A stretch of DNA of 64,000 bases. It comes from Gammaproteobacteria bacterium (GTDB lineage Bacteria > Pseudomonadota > Gammaproteobacteria > GCA-001735895). Positions 26,036 to 61,611 of this stretch are shown here, one piece after another (positions within the stretch are counted from its first letter, which is position 1; every line of letters starts with the position of its first letter). The translations under genes were made by a program, and so were the position numbers. The notes under the pieces are model-generated. The model saw only the letters and a list, made by a program, of their open reading frames with translations, was not told the origin of the DNA and did not search any database. The stretch lies in the NCBI GenBank assembly GCA_050306135.1, contig JBNLGQ010000112.1:67794-131793 (forward strand), in the 5' to 3' direction.

Positions 26036-26782
26036 TTAAGCAGACATAAACATACCGCCGTTAACCGGGATATTGGCACCGGTGGTATAGGCATTTTGAG
26101 CATCGGCCAACCAGGCTACAGTATTCGCGATTTCTTCAGGCTTACCCATACGTCCCACAGGAACCGCGTTGACGATAGATTGAAGCACTTCTTCGGGCAT
26201 AGCACTGGTCATAGCAGTTTCGATATATCCAGGAGAAACGGTATTTACTGTTACACCTTTTGATGCAGTTTCCTGAGCAACTGACATGGTAAAACCGTGT
26301 AAACCCGCTTTCGCTGCAGAGTAGTTAGCCTGGCCGAATTGACCTTTCTGACCATTCACTGAAGAAATATTAACGATACGACCGAAACCACGCTCAGTCA
26401 TGCCGGTTACCACATGTTGGGTAACATTGAATGCACTGTTCAGGTTGGTGTTGATGACAGCAGTCCACTGATCAGGTGTCATACGCTTCAAGGTTTTGTC
26501 GCGAGTGATGCCGGCACAGTTAACCAGTACATCGATAGGTCCAATACTGGATTCGATAGACTTAACCATTTCGCCGCATTCTTCATAGCTAGTCACATCA
26601 GCAGGGGCAATATGAACATCAGCATTTCTGCTTTGCATATCGGCTAACCAGCTTTCTGCTGCTTCTTTATCAGCAGGGAAGTAGTTGGCAACAACACTAT
26701 GACCGCTGGAAGCCAGGGCTTCACAGATTGCTGTTCCGATTCCGCCGGTACCGCCAGTGACTAATGCTACTTTCTTGGACAT
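26036..26782 (-). CDS. phaB: acetoacetyl-CoA reductase (PhaB paralogue 2)
   Basis: 248 aa SDR. VTGGTGGIGTAIC and NYSAAKAGLHGFT. About 60% identical by eye to Cupriavidus PhbB. Confidence 0.8.
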   Translation of the reverse strand: MSKKVALVTGGTGGIGTAICEALASSGHSVVANYFPADKEAAESWLADMQSRNADVHIAPADVTSYEECGEMVKSIESSIGPIDVLVNCAGITRDKTLKRMTPDQWTAVINTNLNSAFNVTQHVVTGMTERGFGRIVNISSVNGQKGQFGQANYSAAKAGLHGFTMSVAQETASKGVTVNTVSPGYIETAMTSAMPEEVLQSIVNAVPVGRMGKPEEIANTVAWLADAQNAYTTGANIPVNGGMFMSA

Positions 26783-26960: not shown

Positions 26961-27359
26961 TTAAGCAGCTTTTTTGGCTGTTTTCTTAACAACTTCTACG
27001 CCTGAATCGAAAGCTTTAGTGGCATATTCGCTGTTCAGCTTAACTGCATCATCGATAGCAACTTTCAGTTCGTCGCGAGATTTAACTGCGTCAGCAGCTG
27101 ATTCTTTAACAAAACCAGTTACGCTGTCAGAAACAGTTTGCATCAGAGCACTAGAGGCCTGCATTGCATCAACTGGAGATTTTGCAGAAGAGATTTCTTT
27201 ACTGGTAGCAAGAGCTGCTTCAACGATTGTGTTAGTCAGTTCAACTTGCTTGTTGATGAAAGATTGAGCAGTTGCAACGTTCAGGTCACCAAAAGCACGC
27301 ATAGCTTCCATCGCTTTAGTGTTGTATTCGTAAAATAATTCAACGGTAGGGTTAGACAT
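26961..27359 (-). CDS. phaP: phasin family PHA granule protein
   Basis: Start set at MSNPTVELF (GGAGA RBS 7 nt upstream). Ala/Lys-rich amphipathic helices. Located next to phaR with PhaR-type operator repeats upstream. Confidence 0.65.
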   Translation of the reverse strand: MSNPTVELFYEYNTKAMEAMRAFGDLNVATAQSFINKQVELTNTIVEAALATSKEISSAKSPVDAMQASSALMQTVSDSVTGFVKESAADAVKSRDELKVAIDDAVKLNSEYATKAFDSGVEVVKKTAKKAA

Positions 27360-27409
27360 GGTATATCTCCGAGCTTGGGTTAAATAAGTAAATTTAAAAT
27401 TCTGTTTTG

Positions 27410-27436
27410 TGCACTGCACAATGTTGCACTGCACAA
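27410..27436. promoter_or_regulatory. tandem direct repeat TGCACTGCACAA x2 (15 bp period) upstream of the phasin gene; candidate PhaR operator
   Basis: Copies at 27410-27421 and 27425-27436, 50-75 bp upstream of the phasin start. PhaR is known to bind TGC-rich repeats in Paracoccus and Cupriavidus. Confidence 0.5.
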
Positions 27437-27555
27437 ATAATATGTCTGGACAGAAATTTGTCAAGCGGGAAATGAAATATATTTTTTAATATAAAAAGAT
27501 ATTTATATTATATCCTGATAAATCAATAACTTAATTTATTTTCTGAGGATGAGAT

Positions 27556-28029
27556 TTATTTTTTTAAATCTTCAGAAGAGCCAGATTTGAAAAATTTGCT
27601 CTGTAATTCACTTAGCTTTTCAAGATTTTGACTGGTCATTTGCATCCAGAAATCCATCGGAGAGTTCTTGAAAACCTTATCCATCTGGTTCACTAGAGAG
27701 CCCTGTTGCTCAGAAAATAACTGCATACTGGCCTGTAAAAAGCTGGAGAAATAATCTCGATTGGTCTGACTGTTGTTGCGGATAAATTCGGAAAGAATAT
27801 CGCTATTAAATAGTGGTTCGTTATTGTTTTCCTGCTCCATGATAATCTGTAACAGAATACTACGGGTAAGATCTTCGCCGGTTTTCTGATCCACAACCTT
27901 AAATGGTGTGTTGTCTATAACCATCTGTTTGGCATCATCAAGGGTGATATAACGACTATCCTGAGTATCGTATAAGCGACGGTTGGGGTATTTTTTTATA
28001 AGACGTTCATTATCACTAGTTTCTGACAC
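27556..28029 (-). CDS. phaR: PHA synthesis repressor PhaR
   Basis: KKYPNRRLYDT signature near the N-terminus. 157 aa. Apparent GTG start. Confidence 0.85.
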   Translation of the reverse strand: MSETSDNERLIKKYPNRRLYDTQDSRYITLDDAKQMVIDNTPFKVVDQKTGEDLTRSILLQIIMEQENNNEPLFNSDILSEFIRNNSQTNRDYFSSFLQASMQLFSEQQGSLVNQMDKVFKNSPMDFWMQMTSQNLEKLSELQSKFFKSGSSEDLKK

Positions 28030-28097: not shown

Positions 28098-29285
28098 TTA
28101 ATCTACCAATTCAACTGCCATAGCAACACCCTGGCCACCACCGATACACAGGGTAGCAAGTCCTTTTTTCGCTGATTTACGTTGCATACCATGTAACAGA
28201 GTTACCAGTATACGAGCACCGGAAGCGCCTATCGGGTGACCTAATGAAATAGCACCACCGCTAACATTAACCTTATCCGTATCCCAGCCAAGTGTTTTAT
28301 TGACTGAAAGTGCCTGTGCTGCGAAAGCTTCATTGGATTCAATTAGATCAAGATCAGAAATATCCCAACCTGCTTTTTGCAGGCATTTCTGAGTAGAAGG
28401 AATGGGTCCTGTGCCCATAATCTTGGGATCAACACCAGCACTGGAGAAAGCCACGATACGGGCAATCGGTTTCAAACCAAGCTCTTTGGCTTTCGATTCT
28501 GTCATTACCATAACTGCGGCCGCGCCATCGTTGATACCGGAAGCGTTACCAGCGGTAACCGTACCATCTTTTTTGAAAGCAGGGCGTAATCCCCCCAGCT
28601 TTTCTGCAGTAGTACCAGCGCGGGGAAATTCGTCTTTTGCAAAGACTAGAGGGTCACCCTTGCGTTGAGGGATAGTGACAGGAGTAATCTCTTTGTCAAA
28701 ATTGCCGGCATTTTGAGCGGCTTCAGTTTTTTGTTGTGAAGCAGCAGAGAAAGCATCCTGATCATCACGTGTTAAGGAGAACTGTTCTGCAATATTTTCT
28801 GCGGTGACACCCATATGAATATTATTCATGGCACACCATAGACCATCAACAATCATGCTGTCTTCCAGCTCCCAGTTACCCATCATCTTACCGTTGCGAG
28901 ACTTAGGTAAAACATGTGCAGAAAGACTCATATTTTCCTGACCACCTGCAATCACAATATCTGCATCACCACAGCTTACTGATTGAAATGCCAGATGAAC
29001 GGCCTTTAAACCACTGCCACAAACTTTATTAATGGTCATTGCTGAAGATGTATCGGGAAGTCCTGCAGCTAAAGCGGTTTGACGAGCAGGGTTTTGACCA
29101 GCACCAGCAGTAAGAACCTGACCTAAAATGACTTCATCGATCTGATCTGCAGGCACACCGGACTGATCAAGCAAAGATTTGACAACAGTGGAGCCGAGCT
29201 CAACTGCAGAAACATTCGACAGTGAGCCTCCGAAGGAGCCAATGGCGGTTCTTGTAGCATGGGTGATGACAATAGATTCGGACAT
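28098..29285 (-). CDS. phaA: acetyl-CoA acetyltransferase (beta-ketothiolase PhaA)
   Basis: Thiolase active-site Cys in NKVCGSGLKA. C-terminal GGGQG motif. Start at MSESIVITHATRTAIGSFGG with an AAGAGG RBS. Confidence 0.85.
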   Translation of the reverse strand: MSESIVITHATRTAIGSFGGSLSNVSAVELGSTVVKSLLDQSGVPADQIDEVILGQVLTAGAGQNPARQTALAAGLPDTSSAMTINKVCGSGLKAVHLAFQSVSCGDADIVIAGGQENMSLSAHVLPKSRNGKMMGNWELEDSMIVDGLWCAMNNIHMGVTAENIAEQFSLTRDDQDAFSAASQQKTEAAQNAGNFDKEITPVTIPQRKGDPLVFAKDEFPRAGTTAEKLGGLRPAFKKDGTVTAGNASGINDGAAAVMVMTESKAKELGLKPIARIVAFSSAGVDPKIMGTGPIPSTQKCLQKAGWDISDLDLIESNEAFAAQALSVNKTLGWDTDKVNVSGGAISLGHPIGASGARILVTLLHGMQRKSAKKGLATLCIGGGQGVAMAVELVD

Positions 29286-29484
29286 GGATTGAAAACCTCT
29301 TGTTATTAATTTATTAGGATGCTTCACTGCCCTTGAGGACATAGTTAAATGCAAATACCTGTCAACAGGCTCTGCTACATAATTTGTATTGAAATTATCC
29401 TACATATTTAAACACGATTAATTGTTGCGGTGCAACATTTAGAATGGTAGTGTTTTACGATTAACACCGCTGGGGGAAAGATTA

Positions 29485-30525
29485 ATGTCAAATAACAATA
29501 ATGATGGTCAGGATTATCTAGCTCAACTTTACGATTTACAAAAACAGTACATGAGCAACCTGCAACAGATGATGCAACCGCAGGCACCCACAAACCCAAT
29601 GGAACAGATGTTTAAAGCCTGGATGCCGGGAAATGCCTCCCCCAGCAATCCATTTGAACAGATGCAGAACCCAATAAATAGCTGGATGCAGCAAACGGGG
29701 ATGGGTTCGATGAACTCACTCTACCAGCAAATGAATGAACAATTTAAATCCCAGTTACAGAATCCATTCGCCTCATTAATGATGCCGGGCATTCAGAACC
29801 AGTTCAAAATGCCAGAATTACCAGATATGAGCAGCATGAAATCGCCTTTTATAGATATGATGCAAGGGTTATTCAATGATGATGAGCGTAGCAAGGCTGA
29901 AGCGCTGATGAATTCTTTAAAGGATTACCAGCAGGTATCGATGGAGATAAACCATTTAATGGCTCAACTCGCTATTGAAAGCCTGGAAAAATTACAGCAA
30001 AAAGTTAACGAAAAAGATAAACAGGATCTTAATAATGTACCTCAGTGGTGGGTTGAGATTACTCAATCTGTTTTTGAAGAATCAAAAACGAGTGAAGCCT
30101 ATCAGGAATTACAGAAAAAAATGGAAATGGTACAGTCAAAACTGGAAGATGATAAAGAGCAGTATCGTGAGACTCTTGCCCAGAGCCTGGGTCTGGTTAC
30201 TGAAAAAACCTATAATGCGATGCAGATGCAACTGGAAGCATTGCAGAAACAAATTAAGGAATTGAGTGAAAAGAAGATTGATCAGGAAGCAATAAATGCA
30301 GCTGCTGAAGATTTCACCGTGCTTAACGGTATTGGGCAGAAGTTTAATGAAAAGCTACATGAACAAGGTGTAAACAACTTGAAGCAGTTAGCCTCTATGT
30401 CAGATGAAATGCTTAAACATCTTGATGGTGAATTGCAGACAAAAGGAAAAGTTTTCCAGGATCAGTGGCGTGAACAGGCCGAGCAGTTTTTAAATTCCAT
30501 GTCGGGAAAACCCGCAAAAAAGTAA
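29485..30525 (+). CDS. Q/M/N/P-rich low-complexity protein with C-terminal helix-hairpin-helix; possible PHA-granule associated protein by context
   Basis: 346 aa. The N-terminal 130 aa contain repeated NP(F/M)EQM and MMPG motifs. A central coiled coil. C-terminal FTVLNGIGQKFNEKLHEQGVNNLKQLA HhH-like motif. Confidence 0.35.
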   Translation: MSNNNNDGQDYLAQLYDLQKQYMSNLQQMMQPQAPTNPMEQMFKAWMPGNASPSNPFEQMQNPINSWMQQTGMGSMNSLYQQMNEQFKSQLQNPFASLMMPGIQNQFKMPELPDMSSMKSPFIDMMQGLFNDDERSKAEALMNSLKDYQQVSMEINHLMAQLAIESLEKLQQKVNEKDKQDLNNVPQWWVEITQSVFEESKTSEAYQELQKKMEMVQSKLEDDKEQYRETLAQSLGLVTEKTYNAMQMQLEALQKQIKELSEKKIDQEAINAAAEDFTVLNGIGQKFNEKLHEQGVNNLKQLASMSDEMLKHLDGELQTKGKVFQDQWREQAEQFLNSMSGKPAKK

Positions 30526-30542
30526 TTCATAGGTAGTTTGTA

Positions 30543-32717
30543 ATGTCATATATCCATATTAAAAATATCAAGGTTGCACAGTCACTGGTTGATTTTGTCA
30601 ATACAGAGGTTTTACCAGAACTGGAAATGGACTCAGCGATTTATTGGGAAAATTTCGAATCCATAATGACCTCTTTCAGTAAAGAGAATGTCGAGTTATT
30701 AAACAAAAGAGATGAAATCCAGCAACAGATTGATGGCTGGCATAAAAAGAATAAGTACGATGCAGGCAACCTGGATAGCTATAAGCAATTTCTAACTGAA
30801 ATCGGTTATATCGTTCCCGAAAAAGAAGATTTTAAAGTCAATATTGAAAATGTAGACCGTGAAATTTCAAGTGTTGCCGCCCCTCAACTGGTGGTTCCCA
30901 TCAATAATGCACGCTTTGCAATCAATGCAGCGAATGCAAGATGGGGCAGTCTATACGATGCACTGTACGGTACTGACATGATTGCTGACGAAGGCGAAAC
31001 TGCGATTGGTAAGCAATATAATAAACAGCGTGGTCAGGCGGTATTTGATTTCTGTACCCAATGGCTGGATAAGGTACTACCGCTGCAGGGTGGTGTATCT
31101 CATGCGGAGGTTAAGGAATACGGCCTGGAACTGATCATGGGCATAGAGAGACCTTTCTTTAAACTGGACAATGGTGTACGAGTCAAGTTACAGGATGCAG
31201 ATCAGTTTAAAGGCTACTCGCATAGTGGTGATCTGGTACTTTTATTTATCCATAATGATCTTTATTTTGAGCTTAGAATCAATAAGAGAAGCATCATAGG
31301 TCAGCATCATCCAGCAGGTTTAACCGATATTATTCTGGAAGCTGCAGTTACCACCATTGAAGATTGTGAAGATTCAGTTGCGGCGGTAGATACAGAAGAC
31401 AAAATGCTGGTGTATCGAAACTGGAGAATGTTAGTGCATGGCGAACTGTGTTTCGAAATGCGCAAAGATGGCAAATCATTTACCCGTGTATTAAACGCGA
31501 ATCGCGAGTATCGAAATAAGAAAGGTGAGGCATTCAGCTTACCTGGTCGCAGTTTGATGCTGGTGCGAAATACAGGCTTACATATGAAGACAGATCTGGT
31601 GCTGGATGCAAAAGATCAAATGATGCCCGAAGGTCTGGTCGATGGTTTAATCACGGTTTTGATTTCGCTTTACGATATTTCAAAGCGCCATGCTTACAAC
31701 AATAGCCGTAAAAAGAGTATTTATATCGTAAAGCCCAAGATGCACGGGCCAGAAGAAGTGGCTTTTACCTGTCGCTTGTTTGATGCCATCGAAGAAGCTT
31801 ATAGCTTACCGAAGAATACCGTAAAAATCGGTATTATGGATGAAGAAAGAAGAACCACTGTAAACCTGAAAGAATGTATCAGAGAGGCTAAGGAAAGAGT
31901 TATTTTTATCAATACCGGTTTTCTGGATCGCACCGGTGATGAAATCCATACCAGTATGAAAATTGGTGCCATGCTGCCTAAAGGAGAGATCAAAGGCGAA
32001 AGCTGGATGACAGCCTATGAGAACTGGAATGTAGATACTGGGTTAATGTGCGGACTGGACGGTGTTGCACAGATTGGTAAGGGCATGTGGGCTGTGCCAG
32101 ACCAGATCAAGGCCATGTACGACAGTAAGCAGACTCACCCGGAAGCCGGTGCCAACTGCGCATGGGTTCCCTCACCTACCGCTGCGGTAATACATGCCCT
32201 GCATTACCATAATGTCTATGTAAAACAGGAACAGCAAAAGATTAAGCTGAGAAATCGCGCCAATATAGACCACATATTGACGGTTCCTCTGCTGCCTAAG
32301 AATAGAAAATTATCTGACAGCGAAATTCAGCAGGAACTGGATAATAATGCCCAGGGTATTTTAGGTTATGTTGTGAAATGGATAGATCAGGGTGTGGGTT
32401 GTTCCAAGGTGCCGGACATCCATGATGTAGGCCTGATGGAAGATCGCGCTACACTGCGTATTTCCAGCCAGCACATGGCTAACTGGCTATTACACGGTTT
32501 ATGCACTGAAGAGCAGGTAGTTGAAACCTTTAAGCGTATGGCCAAGGTGGTGGATAAGCAAAATAGCACAACACCTGGTTACAGAAATATGGCACCGAAA
32601 TTCGACGGTGTGGCATTTGAAGCAGCATTGCAACTGGTTTTACAGGGTGCCGAATCCGCTAATGGCTATACTGAAGACCTGCTACAAAAGTATCGATTAA
32701 AAGCCAAGCATGCCTGA
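30543..32717 (+). CDS. glcB: malate synthase G
   Basis: 724 aa. Length and N-terminus are typical of GlcB. Conserved catalytic region. The RBS overlaps the preceding stop. Confidence 0.85.
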   Translation: MSYIHIKNIKVAQSLVDFVNTEVLPELEMDSAIYWENFESIMTSFSKENVELLNKRDEIQQQIDGWHKKNKYDAGNLDSYKQFLTEIGYIVPEKEDFKVNIENVDREISSVAAPQLVVPINNARFAINAANARWGSLYDALYGTDMIADEGETAIGKQYNKQRGQAVFDFCTQWLDKVLPLQGGVSHAEVKEYGLELIMGIERPFFKLDNGVRVKLQDADQFKGYSHSGDLVLLFIHNDLYFELRINKRSIIGQHHPAGLTDIILEAAVTTIEDCEDSVAAVDTEDKMLVYRNWRMLVHGELCFEMRKDGKSFTRVLNANREYRNKKGEAFSLPGRSLMLVRNTGLHMKTDLVLDAKDQMMPEGLVDGLITVLISLYDISKRHAYNNSRKKSIYIVKPKMHGPEEVAFTCRLFDAIEEAYSLPKNTVKIGIMDEERRTTVNLKECIREAKERVIFINTGFLDRTGDEIHTSMKIGAMLPKGEIKGESWMTAYENWNVDTGLMCGLDGVAQIGKGMWAVPDQIKAMYDSKQTHPEAGANCAWVPSPTAAVIHALHYHNVYVKQEQQKIKLRNRANIDHILTVPLLPKNRKLSDSEIQQELDNNAQGILGYVVKWIDQGVGCSKVPDIHDVGLMEDRATLRISSQHMANWLLHGLCTEEQVVETFKRMAKVVDKQNSTTPGYRNMAPKFDGVAFEAALQLVLQGAESANGYTEDLLQKYRLKAKHA

Positions 32718-32740
32718 TATTTTTTAATATTTAAGACCTG

Positions 32741-32772
32741 AGAAAGCCGCTAAAAGCGGCTTTCTTTTTTAC
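32741..32772 (+). terminator. rho-independent terminator after glcB
   Basis: aaagccgct-aaaa-gcggcttt hairpin followed by cttttttac. Confidence 0.75.
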
Positions 32773-42344: not shown

Positions 42345-43067
42345 TTAGTACATCTGCTGACCGCCGTTAACGTCCAGTGTGGAACCAGTGATAAAACCCG
42401 CTTCATCGGCTATTAGAAACATGACGCTACGCGCAATATCTTCCGGGTCGCCCAGACGTCCTACCGGTATACGCTGGATGATTTTTTCCAGTACCTTTTC
42501 CGGAACCGCTCGCACCATATCTGTCAGTACATAACCAGGAGCAACTGCATTAACCGTAATGCCTTTAGCTGCACCTTCAAGTGCTAATGCTTTGGTGAAT
42601 CCGTGGATGCCAGATTTGGCTGCTGCATAGTTCACCTGTCCATACTGTCCTGCACGACCATTGATGGAACCGATATTGACGATGCGCCCGAATTCACGTT
42701 CGCGCATTCCATCGATTACCGCACGACACATATTAAAGCAGGATGCCAGATTGGTCTGAATGACTTCATTCCATTGCTCGAAAGTCATTCTATGCATGGT
42801 GGTATCTCTGGTAATACCTGCATTGTTAACCAGTACTTCAACCGGACCGAGATCAGCTTCAATGGTTTCTATACCTTTTTGACAGGCTTCGAAATCTGCG
42901 ACATCAAATTTATAAGCCGGTATTTTGGTAACTTCGGTAAAAGCTTTAGCAGAGGCTTCATTACCTGCATAGGTTGCCGCTACATTGTATCCTGCTTTTT
43001 TTAACGCCAGGCAAATTGCTTCACCTATGCCACGTGTACCACCTGTAACAACTGCAACTCTTCCCAT
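42345..43067 (-). CDS. phaB: acetoacetyl-CoA reductase PhaB
   Basis: 240 aa SDR. VTGGTRGIGEAIC and NYAAAKSGIHGFT. Confidence 0.8.
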   Translation of the reverse strand: MGRVAVVTGGTRGIGEAICLALKKAGYNVAATYAGNEASAKAFTEVTKIPAYKFDVADFEACQKGIETIEADLGPVEVLVNNAGITRDTTMHRMTFEQWNEVIQTNLASCFNMCRAVIDGMREREFGRIVNIGSINGRAGQYGQVNYAAAKSGIHGFTKALALEGAAKGITVNAVAPGYVLTDMVRAVPEKVLEKIIQRIPVGRLGDPEDIARSVMFLIADEAGFITGSTLDVNGGQQMY

Positions 43068-43083
43068 TTCACTCCCCTCATAG

Positions 43084-44877
43084 TTATATATTCACGATTT
43101 TAGTTTTTACATATCGGCCGGGGGCATCTTCGATAACTTTGAGCTGATGATCCCCGGGTTGCCTTGCATCAATTTGTTCACCGCTATATTTGCTTACCCA
43201 TTTATCCCATGCAGGCCACCATGACCCCTCATTCTGTTTGGCCTTATCTGCCCATGCCTGTGCATCTTTAGGTAACTTAGCTGTGGTCATTTTGTAACCG
43301 TATTTGTTAGCTGCAGGAGGATTCACGATTCCTGCAATATGGCCAGATCCACCCAGGATAAATTTTACCGGTCCAGAGAAATTTTGGGCCCCCATCCAGG
43401 TCGATTTCCATGGAGCTATATGATCCTCTACGGTAGAGATAAAAAGTGCCGGAGTTTTGATTTTTGTTAAATCAATAGGCGTGCCATCTATTTCCAGTGT
43501 TCCAGGTTTAACCAGATTATTGTGCAGATATAGATTTCGTAAATACCATTTATGCATAGCTGCTGGCATACGTGTGGAATCTGAATTCCAGTACAACAGG
43601 TCAAATGCACGAGGGTCATTTCCCATTAGATAATTGTTGATATAAAAAGACCAGATTAAATCGTTTGAGCGCAGCAGATTAAAGGTGCCAGACATCTTGC
43701 CACCATCCAGATATCCTTCCTGATCCATTTTCTCTTCCAGTGAAGCTAACTGCTGTTCATCAATGAACATACCCAACTCACCCGGTTCAGAAAAATCGAT
43801 CATGCTAGTAAAGAAGGTTGCACTTTTAATACGATTGTCATCGTGTGCAGCCATATAGGCAAGGGTGGTCGCTAATAATGTTCCACCGATGCAATAACCG
43901 ATGGCATTGATGTCTTTTTCTCCAGTGGCCTGTTCGATCTGATCGATGGCGGTGAGTACACCTTCCTTCATGTATTCAGTGAAGCCAACCTCTTTGTAAC
44001 TTTCGTCAGGATTCACCCATGAGATGACAAATACCGAATGGCCCTGTTCAACCAGCCAGTGAATCAGTGAATTTTTTTCCTGTAGATCGAGAATATAAAA
44101 TTTATTGATCCAGGGTGGCACTATCAGCAATGGTGTCTTATTTACCTTTTCGGTAGTGGGTGTGTACTGAATCAGCTGAAACATGCGATTTTCATAAACC
44201 ACCTTGCCTGGGGTGGTAGCCACATTTTTGCCCAGTTCAAAAGCACTGTAATCGGTCATGCTGATCTGCAGCTTGCCTTCTCCACGCTCCAGATCATCGA
44301 TCATATTTTTCATCCCATGCAGCAGACTCATGCCGCGCGTTTCTATGACTTTTTCAAGTACCGCTGGATTAGTCGTAGCAAAGTTAGTGGGGGATAAGGC
44401 ATTCAGAAAAAGGTGGGTAAAAAACTCTGCCCTTTGTGCAGTTTTTTCATCCAGGCCTTCTGTCTCTTTGACCAGTCGAAGCATATGCTGAGATAACAGA
44501 AGATAAGATTGCTTAATCATATTGAAAGAGGGTTGATCCCAGCCTTCATGTCTAAATCGTCGATCTGTTTTATCTGCTTCTACGGTAGTCGGCAGAGGTT
44601 GTTGTGTCATTATAGCCTGTAGAGAATTCTGGTATAATTCCAGACTTTGTTTCCAGAAATCAATATTAGCTGTTAAAACTTTTTGCGGGTTTTCATTCAT
44701 ATGCGCAAAAAGATCCGTATAAACATCACCCATCTTTAGCGGGTCAAAGTCCGGTTTGTCCTGTTGTGTAGTAAAAGCTTTTAACAGTTTTTCAGCCTGT
44801 TTGTAACTGGCTTCGATTCCCTGAGAAATAGATGTGAAACCTAAGGCATCCTGAAACGTTGATTGTTGATCGGACAT
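43084..44877 (-). CDS. phaC: class I poly(R)-hydroxyalkanoate synthase PhaC
   Basis: 597 aa. Lipase box GYCIGG with catalytic Cys. Conserved Asp and His downstream. Confidence 0.9.
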   Translation of the reverse strand: MSDQQSTFQDALGFTSISQGIEASYKQAEKLLKAFTTQQDKPDFDPLKMGDVYTDLFAHMNENPQKVLTANIDFWKQSLELYQNSLQAIMTQQPLPTTVEADKTDRRFRHEGWDQPSFNMIKQSYLLLSQHMLRLVKETEGLDEKTAQRAEFFTHLFLNALSPTNFATTNPAVLEKVIETRGMSLLHGMKNMIDDLERGEGKLQISMTDYSAFELGKNVATTPGKVVYENRMFQLIQYTPTTEKVNKTPLLIVPPWINKFYILDLQEKNSLIHWLVEQGHSVFVISWVNPDESYKEVGFTEYMKEGVLTAIDQIEQATGEKDINAIGYCIGGTLLATTLAYMAAHDDNRIKSATFFTSMIDFSEPGELGMFIDEQQLASLEEKMDQEGYLDGGKMSGTFNLLRSNDLIWSFYINNYLMGNDPRAFDLLYWNSDSTRMPAAMHKWYLRNLYLHNNLVKPGTLEIDGTPIDLTKIKTPALFISTVEDHIAPWKSTWMGAQNFSGPVKFILGGSGHIAGIVNPPAANKYGYKMTTAKLPKDAQAWADKAKQNEGSWWPAWDKWVSKYSGEQIDARQPGDHQLKVIEDAPGRYVKTKIVNI

Positions 44878-57005: not shown

Positions 57006-60490
<3,485 letters not shown>

Positions 60491-60510
60491 AAAGCTTGTA
60501 TAAGATTTAA

Positions 60511-61611
60511 CTACAGGCGCATGGGCATCACTACATATCTAAATTGATTAGAGTCTGGAGTGGTAATTACACAGCTACTGTTGGAATCTTTCAATTTAAT
60601 CAAAACCTGTTCTGAATCCAGTACCGATAATACATCGAGTAAGTAGGTCACATTGAACCCAATTTCCAGGGTCGATTCATCAAAATCTACGGTTATCTCT
60701 TCTTCTGCTTCTTCTCGATCAGGGTTATTAGCCTGAATTGAAAGATTATTTTCTCCAAGCGTTAAACGAATCCCTCTATATTTTTCATTCGATAAAATTG
60801 AGATCCTGTGTAATGACTGCTTTAACAGATCCCTGTTTACACTCAGGGTTTTATTTCCATCTAGCGGTATAACCCTGTTGTAATCAGGAAATTTTCCATC
60901 GATCAATTTTGAAGTAAAAGTAAACTGTTTTGTTTCTACACGGATATGATTATTACTGATTTTAACTTCTGCAATTTCGTCCGTGTTGGACAGTAATCTG
61001 GCTAACTCAAGAATTCCCTTGCGAGGAATAATGATCTGCTCCTCTGTGGTTATATTATTTTCACTTTCATATTCACTTAAAGCAAGCCTGTGCCCATCAG
61101 TGGCAACAAGACGCAAAAAGTCTTTACTGAGTTCCATCAATAAGCCATTCAGATAATACCGAACATCCTGCTGTGCCATTGCAAAAGCTGTTTTATCTAT
61201 TAACAGCTTGAGATTCTTTTGTGGAATCTCAAAGGTGAGTTTAGCTTCGATATCTTCAGTACCCGGAAAATCCTTTCCAGGCAGAGAGGATAGGATAAAA
61301 CGAGATCTCGCCGAAGTAAGCGTGACCTGATTATCTTCTATATTAAACTTGATTTCGCTTTTATCAGGTAGCGCTTTACAGATATCGAGTAGTTTTCTGG
61401 CCGGCAATGTGGTGAGAATATCTTCATTAATCGGAATATCCAGATGAGTTATTAATTCTATCTCAAGATCGGTAGCCGTAAGGGAAAGATTCCCATTGTT
61501 GGATTGAAATAAAACATTCCCCAAAATAGGTAAGGTTTGTTTACGTTCTACCGCTCCTATCACCTGTTGAAGAGGATTGAGCAAGTCTTCTCTATTAATA
61601 ACAATATTCAT
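60511..61611 (-). CDS. dnaN: DNA polymerase III beta sliding clamp
   Basis: 366 aa three-domain clamp. N-terminus and length are typical. Confidence 0.95.
   Translation of the reverse strand: MNIVINREDLLNPLQQVIGAVERKQTLPILGNVLFQSNNGNLSLTATDLEIELITHLDIPINEDILTTLPARKLLDICKALPDKSEIKFNIEDNQVTLTSARSRFILSSLPGKDFPGTEDIEAKLTFEIPQKNLKLLIDKTAFAMAQQDVRYYLNGLLMELSKDFLRLVATDGHRLALSEYESENNITTEEQIIIPRKGILELARLLSNTDEIAEVKISNNHIRVETKQFTFTSKLIDGKFPDYNRVIPLDGNKTLSVNRDLLKQSLHRISILSNEKYRGIRLTLGENNLSIQANNPDREEAEEEITVDFDESTLEIGFNVTYLLDVLSVLDSEQVLIKLKDSNSSCVITTPDSNQFRYVVMPMRL

What the first reader, a model, noticed from the sequence alone, without database searches (positions are those of the whole stretch)
29485..30525. 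Low-complexity Q/M/N-rich protein with C-terminal HhH embedded in the PHA locus
The N-terminal 130 aa are dominated by NP(F/M)EQM, MMPG and QQM repeats, which is prion-like or phase-separation-like composition. A coiled coil follows, then a C-terminal helix-hairpin-helix resembling DNA-binding HhH modules. The gene sits between phaA and glcB, 1.5 kb from phaR and the phasin gene. It is a candidate novel granule-associated or nucleoid-tethering protein, PhaM-like in role but not in sequence.
Basis: partly seen in the sequence, partly recalled or inferred. Interest (0 to 1): 0.55.

Follow-up and report, generated by a model that had tools for sequence, protein, structure and literature searches.

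The report
Orphan PhaE-like protein with HhH tail
This gene encodes a diverged relative of PhaE, the small subunit of two-part bioplastic (PHA) synthases. It carries a possible DNA-binding tail, has lost its usual enzyme partner gene, and probably now acts as a storage-granule surface or anchoring protein.

Summary
The ORF at 29485-30525 (+, 346 aa) is real. Its 42 known relatives all come from uncultured Gammaproteobacteria, and it is under strong purifying selection (dN/dS about 0.045).

Profile comparison shows it is homologous along its whole length to PhaE, the non-catalytic subunit of class III PHA synthase. That includes the Q/M/N-rich N-terminus. A C-terminal helix-hairpin-helix (HhH) module follows the PhaE-like part.

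Bona fide PhaE proteins with the same HhH tail exist. In 5 of 5 such loci a class III phaC follows immediately. In the window family (0 of 6 loci) phaC is missing from that position, and the only synthase seen is class I.

A conserved palindrome matches the published PhaR operator consensus at 16 of 17 positions. It overlaps the gene's promoter and recurs at the phasin promoter.

Best reading: an orphan, PhaR-controlled PhaE-HhH granule protein that may link granules or the synthase to the nucleoid, as PhaH and PhaM do. The tethering step is inferred only, and the HhH domain here is net acidic. I rate it a new variant of a known kind, of moderate interest.

The parts
29485..30525 (+). CDS of the 346-aa orphan PhaE-like protein with a C-terminal HhH domain (stop codon included)
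   Evidence: ORF list and sequence. It has 42 homologues. PF09712 scores 26.7 bits against a gathering score of 25.7. Full-length hhalign to PhaE/PhaE-HhH gives E 1.5e-41. dN/dS is about 0.045.
29485..29874 (+). N-terminal Q/M/N/P-rich region (aa 1-130), a diverged PhaE N-terminal region
   Evidence: Composition Q 16, M 15, N 11%. hhalign to the PhaE N-terminus gives probability 96.3%, E 1.6e-9, with crossed controls below 1%. Q19, Q21, P38 and W67 are invariant in the family. Predicted helices 7-29 and 38-46 are more amphipathic than shuffled versions (about 1% of shuffles reach the observed value). AF2 pLDDT is only 40-67.
29875..30279 (+). Central helical PhaE-like region (aa 131-265), four long helices
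   Evidence: PF09712 aligns aa 133-260 to profile positions 178-310 of 311. hhalign to the PhaE C-terminal half gives probability 98.5%, E 3.7e-15. AF2 pLDDT is about 90 with helices 132-176, 179-201, 204-234 and 240-262.
30298..30504 (+). C-terminal HhH (COG3743/H3TH-type) module, aa 272-340, the most conserved part of the protein
   Evidence: It matches PDB 8yy9_O and 9wqv_a. The NCBIfam models for PhaH, L21, NuoE and S2 hit it through their HhH extension segment. Mean pairwise identity is 71.5% here against 41% elsewhere in the protein. The domain is net acidic, K+R 7 against D+E 10.
29423..29437 (.). Palindrome TGTTGCGGTGCAACA, a putative PhaR operator overlapping the -35 element and spacer of the gene's promoter
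   Evidence: The only exact match in the window. It is present upstream of the gene in all 12 homologous loci examined: at -59 to -72 from the start in 11 of them, and at -148 in L003, which has an insertion. These include the class III loci L010 and L011. It matches the published R. eutropha PhaR consensus YTKNTGCRNYGCANMAR at 16 of 17 positions.
29425..29453 (+). Inferred promoter: -35 TTGCGG (29425-29430), 17-nt spacer, extended -10 TG-n-TAGTGT (TG at 29445-29446, hexamer 29448-29453)
   Evidence: The TGnTAnnnT block is invariant or nearly so across 8 aligned loci. I inferred the hexamers by eye. The consensus scanner did not list this promoter.
27422..27436 (.). Sister operator TGTTGCACTGCACAA at the phasin promoter
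   Evidence: It abuts the -10 of a strong sigma-70-like promoter on the minus strand (27464-27437, TTGACA, 16 nt, TATTAT). The same site lies upstream of the phasin gene in L001, L003 and L008.
30543..32717 (+). glcB (malate synthase G), 18 nt downstream and probably co-transcribed
   Evidence: NF002825 scores 1079 bits. No terminator-like site on the + strand occurs before 32740-32766. The same gene order is seen in L001, L006/L007 and L008.
28098..29285 (-). phaA (acetyl-CoA acetyltransferase), divergently transcribed
   Evidence: TIGR01930 scores 486 bits. The start is taken at MSESIV, where the family models begin to align.
27556..28029 (-). phaR (PHA synthesis repressor)
   Evidence: TIGR01848 scores 126 bits against a cut-off of 109.
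26961..27359 (-). Phasin gene (132 aa from the internal ATG)
   Evidence: TIGR01841 scores 26 bits, below its cut-off of 30. The orthologous 132-139-aa genes carry PF09361 Phasin_2.
26036..26782 (-). phaB (acetoacetyl-CoA reductase)
   Evidence: TIGR01829 scores 375 bits.
43084..44877 (-). Class I PHA synthase PhaC, the only synthase in the window
   Evidence: TIGR01838 scores 775 bits against a cut-off of 623, and PhaC_N is present. A tblastn search with a class III PhaC hits only this gene.

Best explanation
**What it is (shown).** The gene encodes a diverged member of the PhaE family, the non-catalytic subunit of two-component class III PHA synthases. It carries a C-terminal helix-hairpin-helix module. 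It still sits at the ancestral phaE position, divergent from phaA and phaR. In this gammaproteobacterial lineage the class III phaC that normally follows phaE is absent from the locus. The only synthase seen nearby is class I, so this is an orphan PhaE-HhH.

**Regulation (inferred from a motif match and its conservation).** The gene is transcribed from a promoter whose -35 element and spacer are covered by a PhaR-type operator. The phasin promoter carries the same operator. The protein should therefore be made when PhaR is titrated away by nascent PHB, as phasins are.

**Mechanism (inferred).** The Q/M-rich amphipathic N-terminal half and the helical middle, both inherited from PhaE, bind the granule surface and/or the synthase. 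The very highly conserved HhH module attaches that complex to a second partner. That partner is most likely nucleoid DNA, as reported for the HhH of Caulobacter PhaH. The effect would be to space and segregate granules. This role is like that of PhaM, PhaH or PhaF, but on a PhaE scaffold.
For: **Homology to PhaE**
- PF09712 is above its gathering score. 22 of 25 family members match it, with a best E of 1.4e-18.
- Full-length hhalign gives E 1.5e-41. The N-terminal and middle segments are each significant on their own, and crossed controls are negative.

**HhH-tailed PhaE exists with a class III partner**
- P0066, P0074 and P0111 score above the TIGR01834 cut-off (176-193 bits against 155) and carry the same tail.
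- In 5 of 5 such loci a class III phaC follows directly. The three full-length copies score 501-531 bits on TIGR01836; the other two are partial.

**Orphan status**
- No class III phaC appears in 6 distinct family loci or in the 64-kb window.
- Class I phaC is present in the window and in L005.

**pha context.** It is conserved down to 33% identity.

**Operator**
- The palindrome is present upstream of the gene in all 12 loci examined. It recurs at phasin promoters.
- It matches the published PhaR consensus at 16 of 17 positions (compare).

**Selection and conservation**
- dN/dS is about 0.045.
- The HhH module is 71.5% identical on average, against 41% for the rest of the protein.

**Precedents for HhH on PHA-granule proteins**
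- PhaH uses an HhH domain to bind DNA non-specifically and organises granules.
- Haloferax PhaC has an HhH extension.

**Basic linkers in relatives.** Many class III-linked relatives have Lys/Ala/Pro-rich, histone H1-like linkers or tails. This fits a DNA-contacting C-terminus in the wider family.
Against: - No experiment exists on any member of this family.
- In the window family the HhH module is net acidic (K+R 5-9, D+E 9-13), and the linker before it is not basic. This differs from many class III-linked relatives.
- The same module occurs in proteins where DNA binding is not obvious, such as the complex I NuoE extension, reaction-centre protein O, L21 and S2. It also resembles weakly the protein-binding NusA acidic repeats.
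- The PhaH model scores only 49 bits against a cut-off of 250, and most of that score comes from the HhH module.
- A class III phaC elsewhere in the genome cannot be excluded from 64 kb of sequence.
- The count of operator-core matches in the window is not above chance (2 found, 2.2 expected). Its weight comes from position and cross-locus conservation.
- The AF2 N-terminus has low confidence, and Foldseek found nothing significant.
Confidence: 0.55

Rival explanations
1. It is still a working synthase subunit or activator. Either it pairs with a class III PhaC encoded elsewhere in the genome, or it has been recruited to bind and activate the class I PhaC, as PhaM activates PhaC1. In this reading the HhH tail is secondary.
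For: It is homologous to PhaE along its whole length. PhaE pairs with PhaC in every class III locus examined. In Haloferax, unlinked PhaC paralogues form an active synthase with PhaE. PhaM both activates PhaC1 and tethers granules, so the two roles can coexist.
Against: TIGR01834 scores only 30 bits against a cut-off of 155, so the PhaE part is strongly diverged. No class III phaC lies within 64 kb or in any family locus. Class I synthases are known to be active without a PhaE subunit (established knowledge). The HhH module, not the PhaE-like part, is the most conserved region.
Confidence: 0.22
2. It is a granule-associated PhaE-like protein whose HhH module binds a protein partner or mediates oligomerisation, not DNA. 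It would link granules to something other than the nucleoid.
For: The HhH module is net acidic and has no basic linker. The same module sits in complex I, reaction-centre and ribosomal proteins. There is weak similarity to the NusA C-terminal acidic HhH repeats, which bind proteins (the NusA function is established knowledge).
Against: The only studied PHA protein with this module, PhaH, is reported to bind DNA through it. Class III-linked relatives combine it with histone-H1-like basic linkers.
Confidence: 0.15
3. It is a prion-like or phase-separating scaffold. The Q/M/N-rich N-terminus would drive condensate formation around granules.
For: There is a strong Q/M/N bias. AF2 confidence is low over aa 1-130.
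Against: The region aligns position by position with the PhaE N-terminus. It has invariant residues and 41% mean identity. dN/dS is 0.04-0.06. The Met-richness is confined to the window's close clade. Its helices are amphipathic, as in surface-binding proteins.
Confidence: 0.05
4. It is a DNA-repair nuclease, as the JGI annotation of relatives suggests ('predicted flap endonuclease-1-like 5' DNA nuclease').
For: The only support is the automatic name given to the HhH/H3TH module.
Against: No nuclease catalytic domain was found by Pfam or NCBIfam. Only the 65-aa HhH module matches. The genomic context is exclusively pha genes.
Confidence: 0.01

Closest known systems
PhaE, the subunit of class III PHA synthase (Pfam PF09712, NCBIfam TIGR01834), including the HhH-tailed PhaE proteins of class III operons found here
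   Same: It is homologous over the entire PhaE length. It occupies the same locus position, divergent from phaA, phaB and phaR. It has the same PhaR-type operator upstream and the same C-terminal HhH module as P0066, P0074 and P0111.
   Different: No class III phaC follows it, and the synthase at hand is class I. It falls far below the TIGR01834 cut-off. The W-rich PhaE N-terminus has become Q/M/N-rich. The linker before the HhH module is short and not basic.
PhaH of Caulobacter crescentus, an HhH-domain phasin (NCBIfam NF045508; Salinas et al. 2023, seen only through reviews)
   Same: A PHA-associated protein with a C-terminal HhH module of the same COG3743/H3TH type. An N-terminal helical part is presumed to bind granules. 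It is the best functional analogue.
   Different: The score is 49 bits against a cut-off of 250, and the match is essentially the HhH module alone. PhaH is about 234 aa and is not reported to be a PhaE relative. I could not obtain its sequence for a direct test.
PhaM (Cupriavidus necator) and PhaF (Pseudomonas putida), nucleoid-tethering granule proteins
   Same: The proposed role is the same: one protein binds the granule or synthase at one end and a second partner, proposed to be the nucleoid, at the other. PhaM also partners a class I PhaC.
   Different: Those proteins bind DNA through Lys/Ala/Pro-rich, histone-H1-like tails. The window protein has no such tail and is net acidic at its C-terminus. 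There is no sequence relationship beyond weak PF05597 hits in 7 of 25 relatives.
HhH extension of haloarchaeal PhaC (Haloferax mediterranei)
   Same: An HhH module appended to the PHA synthase machinery.
   Different: There it sits on the catalytic subunit PhaC, not on PhaE. It is known only from an AlphaFold model quoted in that paper. It was not compared here.

Membership tests
PhaE (class III PHA synthase subunit; PF09712 / TIGR01834) | Matches the Pfam PF09712 model above its gathering score | tested here: met
   26.7 bits against 25.7 for the window protein. 22 of 25 family members match, with a best E of 1.4e-18.
PhaE (class III PHA synthase subunit; PF09712 / TIGR01834) | Matches NCBIfam TIGR01834 above its curated cut-off | tested here: not met
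   30 bits against a cut-off of 154.95. Outgroup PhaE-HhH proteins reach 176-193 bits.
PhaE (class III PHA synthase subunit; PF09712 / TIGR01834) | Homology along the full length, including the N-terminal half | tested here: met
   hhalign gives probability 100%, E 1.5e-41 over 369 columns. The N-terminus alone gives 96.3%, E 1.6e-9, and crossed controls are below 1%.
PhaE (class III PHA synthase subunit; PF09712 / TIGR01834) | Encoded next to, and partnered with, a class III PhaC of about 350 aa | tested here: not met
   glcB follows the gene instead. No class III phaC is found in the window or in 6 family loci. In contrast, 5 of 5 outgroup loci have one. The rest of the genome was not available.
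PhaE (class III PHA synthase subunit; PF09712 / TIGR01834) | Required for synthase activity | not testable with these tools
   This needs biochemistry or genetics.
PhaH (HhH phasin, NF045508) | Matches the equivalog model above its cut-off | tested here: not met
   49.3 bits against 250. None of the 20 more distant relatives tested reaches the cut-off.
PhaH (HhH phasin, NF045508) | C-terminal HhH (H3TH/COG3743-type) domain | tested here: met
   aa 272-340. JGI applies the COG3743-style name to relatives.
PhaH (HhH phasin, NF045508) | Binds PHB granules at the N-terminus and DNA non-specifically at the C-terminus | not testable with these tools
   Known for PhaH only through a review. No data exist for this family.
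PhaM / PhaF type tethers | Lys/Ala/Pro-rich, histone-H1-like DNA-binding tail | tested here: not met
   In the window protein the 60 aa before the HhH module have K+R 8 and D+E 12, and the HhH module has K+R 7 and D+E 10. There are no KAP repeats.
Prion-like / low-complexity domain proteins | Composition is conserved but sequence is free to drift, with no position-specific homology | tested here: not met
   The compositional bias is present. However, the region aligns to PhaE, has invariant residues and has dN/dS of 0.04-0.06.
PhaR regulon | PhaR operator at the promoter | tested here: inconclusive
   It matches the published consensus at 16 of 17 positions, overlaps the -35 element, is conserved in all loci and is shared with the phasin promoter. 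Binding itself was not tested.
FEN-like 5' nuclease (automatic annotation) | Nuclease catalytic domain | tested here: not met
   No such domain is found in Pfam or NCBIfam scans.

The most novel reading that the evidence does not exclude
HhH or basic tails on PhaE may be a widespread feature that has gone unreported. If so, they reveal the long-unclear job of the PhaE subunit: anchoring the PHA synthase initiation complex and its nascent granule to the nucleoid. The window clade would then show this anchoring module surviving alone after the catalytic partner was exchanged for a class I synthase. It would be a PhaM-like tether that arose from a synthase subunit.
Probability: 0.3. Interest if true: 0.7.

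Novelty: new variant of a known kind. Interest (0 to 1): 0.5.

Why it matters
The role of PhaE in class III synthases is still described as unclear. Three unrelated granule-to-nucleoid tethers are known: PhaM, PhaF and PhaH.

This work finds that many PhaE proteins carry the same HhH module as PhaH. It also finds one clade that keeps such a PhaE, under strong selection and apparent PhaR control, after losing the adjacent class III phaC. Together these give a concrete, testable idea: PhaE is, at least in part, a localisation and tethering subunit.

The finding also corrects misleading automatic names. Relatives are called 'flap endonuclease-like nuclease' or 'hypothetical'. Finally, it flags a probable PhaR-controlled operon that joins this protein to malate synthase G, linking PHB turnover to the glyoxylate bypass.

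Tried and rejected
1. **First AF2 run.** The 25-sequence alignment gave pLDDT 52.6 and an uninterpretable HhH region. A 46-sequence alignment raised this to 72.4.
2. **Foldseek against the PDB.** No match reached E below 1. There were only short local similarities to the Y-family polymerase thumb HhH and to generic helical bundles. No PhaE structure appears to be available for comparison.
3. **Equivalence to PhaH.** Rejected on score. Small 200-260-aa HhH proteins picked from the exhaustive search as possible PhaH relatives turned out to be tandem HhH proteins or L21-like.
4. **The primary PhaH paper.** It is not held in the library, so PhaH properties are quoted from reviews only. I could not compare its sequence with the PhaE-like middle region.
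5. **Palindrome search allowing 2 mismatches.** Not enriched in the window (6 found, 3.7 expected). The operator core TTGCNNTGCAM also occurs at the chance rate (2 found, 2.2 expected). The case for the operator rests on position, conservation and the literature consensus, not on counts.
6. **Prion-like and nuclease readings.** Both rejected; see the rival explanations.
7. **Word-indexed homology search.** It found only the 42 close relatives. The link to canonical PhaE needed the exhaustive profile search.
8. **Literature search.** I looked for PhaE together with HhH or nucleoid and found no report of HhH-tailed PhaE.
Full report
**1. The observation**

The ORF at 29485-30525 on the + strand exists as described. 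It has an ATG start, encodes 346 aa and is preceded by a GGGGGA ribosome-binding site.

The first 130 residues contain Q 16.2%, M 14.6%, N 10.8%, P 9.2% and S 9.2%. Sequence entropy is only mildly reduced, so the region is biased in composition rather than truly repetitive.

Residues 132-262 are predicted as four long helices at pLDDT about 90. The C-terminal 70 residues form short helices typical of an HhH module.

- phaA at 28098-29285 (-)
- phaR at 27556-28029 (-)
- a phasin gene at 26961-27359 (-)
- phaB at 26036-26782 (-)
- glcB at 30543-32717 (+)

The gene is real. It has 42 homologues, all from uncultured Gammaproteobacteria. dN/dS against orthologues of 82-84% identity is about 0.045. 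The figure is similar in the N-terminal, middle and C-terminal thirds. dS is near saturation, so these ratios are approximate.

**2. What it is**

Pfam places residues 133-260 in PF09712, the PhaE subunit of class III PHA synthase, just above the gathering score. Of 25 family members, 22 match that model, with E values down to 1.4e-18.

An exhaustive profile search of 1.84 billion representative proteins gave many multi-HhH proteins, but also full-length single-stretch hits of 400-490 aa. Three of these (P0066, P0074, P0111) score above the curated TIGR01834 PhaE cut-off and carry the same C-terminal HhH module. Others (P0173, P0180) are classical PhaE proteins without the module.

Profile-profile comparison of the window family with 13 such proteins gave probability 100% and E 1.5e-41 over 369 columns, from the N-terminus to the C-terminus.

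I then compared the regions separately:

| Window family segment | PhaE segment | Probability | E value |
|---|---|---|---|
| N-terminus (aa 1-130) | N-terminal half | 96.3% | 1.6e-9 |
| Middle (aa 131-265) | C-terminal half | 98.5% | 3.7e-15 |
| N-terminus | C-terminal half (control) | below 1% | - |
| Middle | N-terminal half (control) | below 1% | - |

The 'prion-like' N-terminus is therefore a diverged PhaE N-terminal region. Canonical PhaE N-termini are already rich in M (up to 13%) and Q (up to 13%) and contain about 6% W. This clade has pushed Q to 12-21%. Only the window's close relatives reach 15% M.

**3. The C-terminal module**

Residues 272-340 match two solved chains with the same roughly 65-residue module:
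- 8yy9_O (E 3.4e-6; 7e-9 with the family profile)
- 9wqv_a, a complex I NuoE-type extension

The segment also matches the HhH extension of the NCBIfam models for alphaproteobacterial L21, NuoE and S2, and the model for the Caulobacter phasin PhaH.

It is the most conserved part of the protein, at 71.5% mean pairwise identity against 41% elsewhere.

The PhaH model scores only 49 bits against a cut-off of 250, and most of that comes from the HhH segment. None of the 20 more distant relatives I tested reaches the cut-off either. This protein is therefore not a PhaH orthologue.

**4. Genomic context and the orphan status**

In five independent loci, an HhH-tailed PhaE is followed immediately by a class III phaC. 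These are L010, L011, L012, L014 and L015. The full-length copies score 501-531 bits on TIGR01836. The upstream genes phaA, phaB and phaR are divergent where the contig extends far enough to show them.

The window locus has the same layout, except that glcB sits where phaC should be. The same holds across the window family:
- L001-L003 (81-84% identity)
- L008 (40% identity) and L006/L007 (33% identity), where glcB is downstream
- L004/L005 (41% identity), where a peroxiredoxin gene on the opposite strand is downstream

A tblastn search with a class III PhaC finds only the class I phaC genes in the window and in these loci. Class I phaC lies 13 kb away in the window (775 bits on TIGR01838). 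In L005 it lies about 4 kb upstream (764 bits).

The simplest history is that an ancestral phaE(HhH)-phaC operon lost phaC in a lineage that uses a class I synthase, while the phaE-HhH gene was kept under strong selection. The limit of this inference is clear: I saw only 64 kb of this genome.

**5. Regulation**

A perfect palindrome, TGTTGCGGTGCAACA (29423-29437), lies 48 nt upstream of the ATG. It overlaps an inferred -35 element (TTGCGG) and the spacer of an extended -10 promoter (TG-n-TAGTGT).

The palindrome and the TGnTAnnnT block are invariant or nearly so across eight aligned loci. These include homologues of 33-41% identity and the class III loci L010 and L011.

A sister site, TGTTGCACTGCACAA (27422-27436), abuts the -10 of a strong promoter for the phasin gene. 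The same arrangement is seen in L001, L003 and L008.

Both sites match the published R. eutropha PhaR consensus YTKNTGCRNYGCANMAR at 16 of 17 positions (PMC12849132). They also fit the YGCR-N-YGCR core defined in S. meliloti (PMC12542648).

Raw counts of the core motif in the window are not above chance. The argument rests on position, conservation and the literature consensus. I infer that the gene belongs to the PhaR regulon and is induced together with the phasin when PHB appears.

glcB starts 18 nt after the stop codon. There is no terminator-like site on the + strand before 32740, so glcB is probably co-transcribed.

**6. How it most likely works**

Shown:
- It is a PhaE-family protein with an HhH module.
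- It has a conserved pha context, no adjacent class III phaC and strong purifying selection.

Inferred:
- The PhaE-derived part binds the granule surface and/or the synthase. Predicted helices 7-29 and 38-46 are significantly amphipathic, as expected for a surface-binding protein.
- The HhH module attaches the complex to the nucleoid. This follows the report for PhaH (review PMC13052382) and parallels PhaM and PhaF.

Supporting this, many class III-linked relatives put a Lys/Ala/Pro-rich, histone-H1-like linker in front of the HhH module, or end in such a tail (P0065, P0141, P0173). An HhH extension is also described on haloarchaeal PhaC.

Against it, in the window family the HhH module is net acidic and the linker is not basic. 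The module also occurs in proteins with no obvious DNA role. A protein-binding role for the module is therefore a serious rival. A residual role as partner or activator of a synthase is another.

**7. Comparison with what is known, and novelty**

- PhaE is the family it belongs to by homology. It fails the defining operational feature of a PhaE, which is partnership with an adjacent class III PhaC, and it fails the curated TIGR01834 threshold.
- PhaH is the closest functional analogue. It shares the module but not the rest of the protein.
- PhaM and PhaF share only the proposed role.

Searches of the held literature found no description of HhH-tailed PhaE or of orphan PhaE in class I organisms. 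One relative is annotated as PhaE by NCBI. Others are called 'flap endonuclease-like nuclease' or 'hypothetical'.

I classify this as a new variant of a known kind.

**8. Verdict**

The claims of sequence novelty and prion-like character are not supported.

Interest is moderate (0.5). The wider implication is that PhaE may in general be a nucleoid-anchoring subunit. That would be of real interest to the PHA field, but it rests on inference.

Noticed in passing
window 29379-29396: A second conserved non-coding block, ATAATTTGTATTGAAAT(T/A)AT, lies in the phaA / phaE-like intergenic region. It is nearly identical in all six loci of the window family but absent from the class III loci L010 and L011. 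Its function is unknown. It could be the phaA promoter or a site for another regulator.
   Followed up: partly
window 30526-32766: glcB (malate synthase G) starts 18 nt after the stop codon, with no terminator on the + strand until 32740-32766. The same gene order is seen in L001, L006/L007 and L008. A PhaR-controlled operon would tie PHB turnover to the glyoxylate bypass. Related pha loci also have isocitrate lyase (L014) or mqo (L011) nearby.
   Followed up: partly
L011 3184-3202: A perfect PhaR-type palindrome (ATGTTGCACTGCAATAAA, matching the operator core on both strands) lies between phaR and the malate:quinone oxidoreductase gene mqo in a class III locus.
   Followed up: no
window 42345-44877: A second pha cluster lies on the minus strand: class I phaC (43084-44877) followed by a second acetoacetyl-CoA reductase gene (42345-43067). 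The same phaC-phaB pair sits next to the pha regulatory cluster in L005.
   Followed up: yes
L004 2441-4791 compared with L005 2023-4585: Two contigs carry identical copies of the homologue P0026 but differ upstream. L005 has class I phaC plus phaB. L004 has an IS66-family element (TnpB and transposase) at that place. This suggests an insertion-sequence-mediated rearrangement of the synthase genes.
   Followed up: no
window 26961-27464: The mechanical ORF for the phasin (167 aa, TTG start) is probably too long. A near-consensus sigma-70 promoter (27464-27437) and the PhaR-type site lie inside its 5' end. Orthologues are 132-139 aa, which points to a start at the ATG at 27359.
   Followed up: partly
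proteins P0044, P0045, P0047, P0048: Giant proteins of 1,800-3,100 aa from metagenomes contain 12-22 tandem copies of the same roughly 65-aa HhH module. Their function is unknown.
   Followed up: no
window 59420-61611: recF (59420-60490) and dnaN (60511-61611) lie on the minus strand. The pha locus is therefore within about 30 kb of the likely replication-origin region. The flanking ORFs, presumably gyrB and dnaA, were not checked.
   Followed up: no
proteins P0043 (294 aa) and P0046 (275 aa): Two relatives of the window family end right after the helical region and lack the HhH module. Their contigs were not examined, so they may be natural tail-less variants or truncated gene calls.
   Followed up: no
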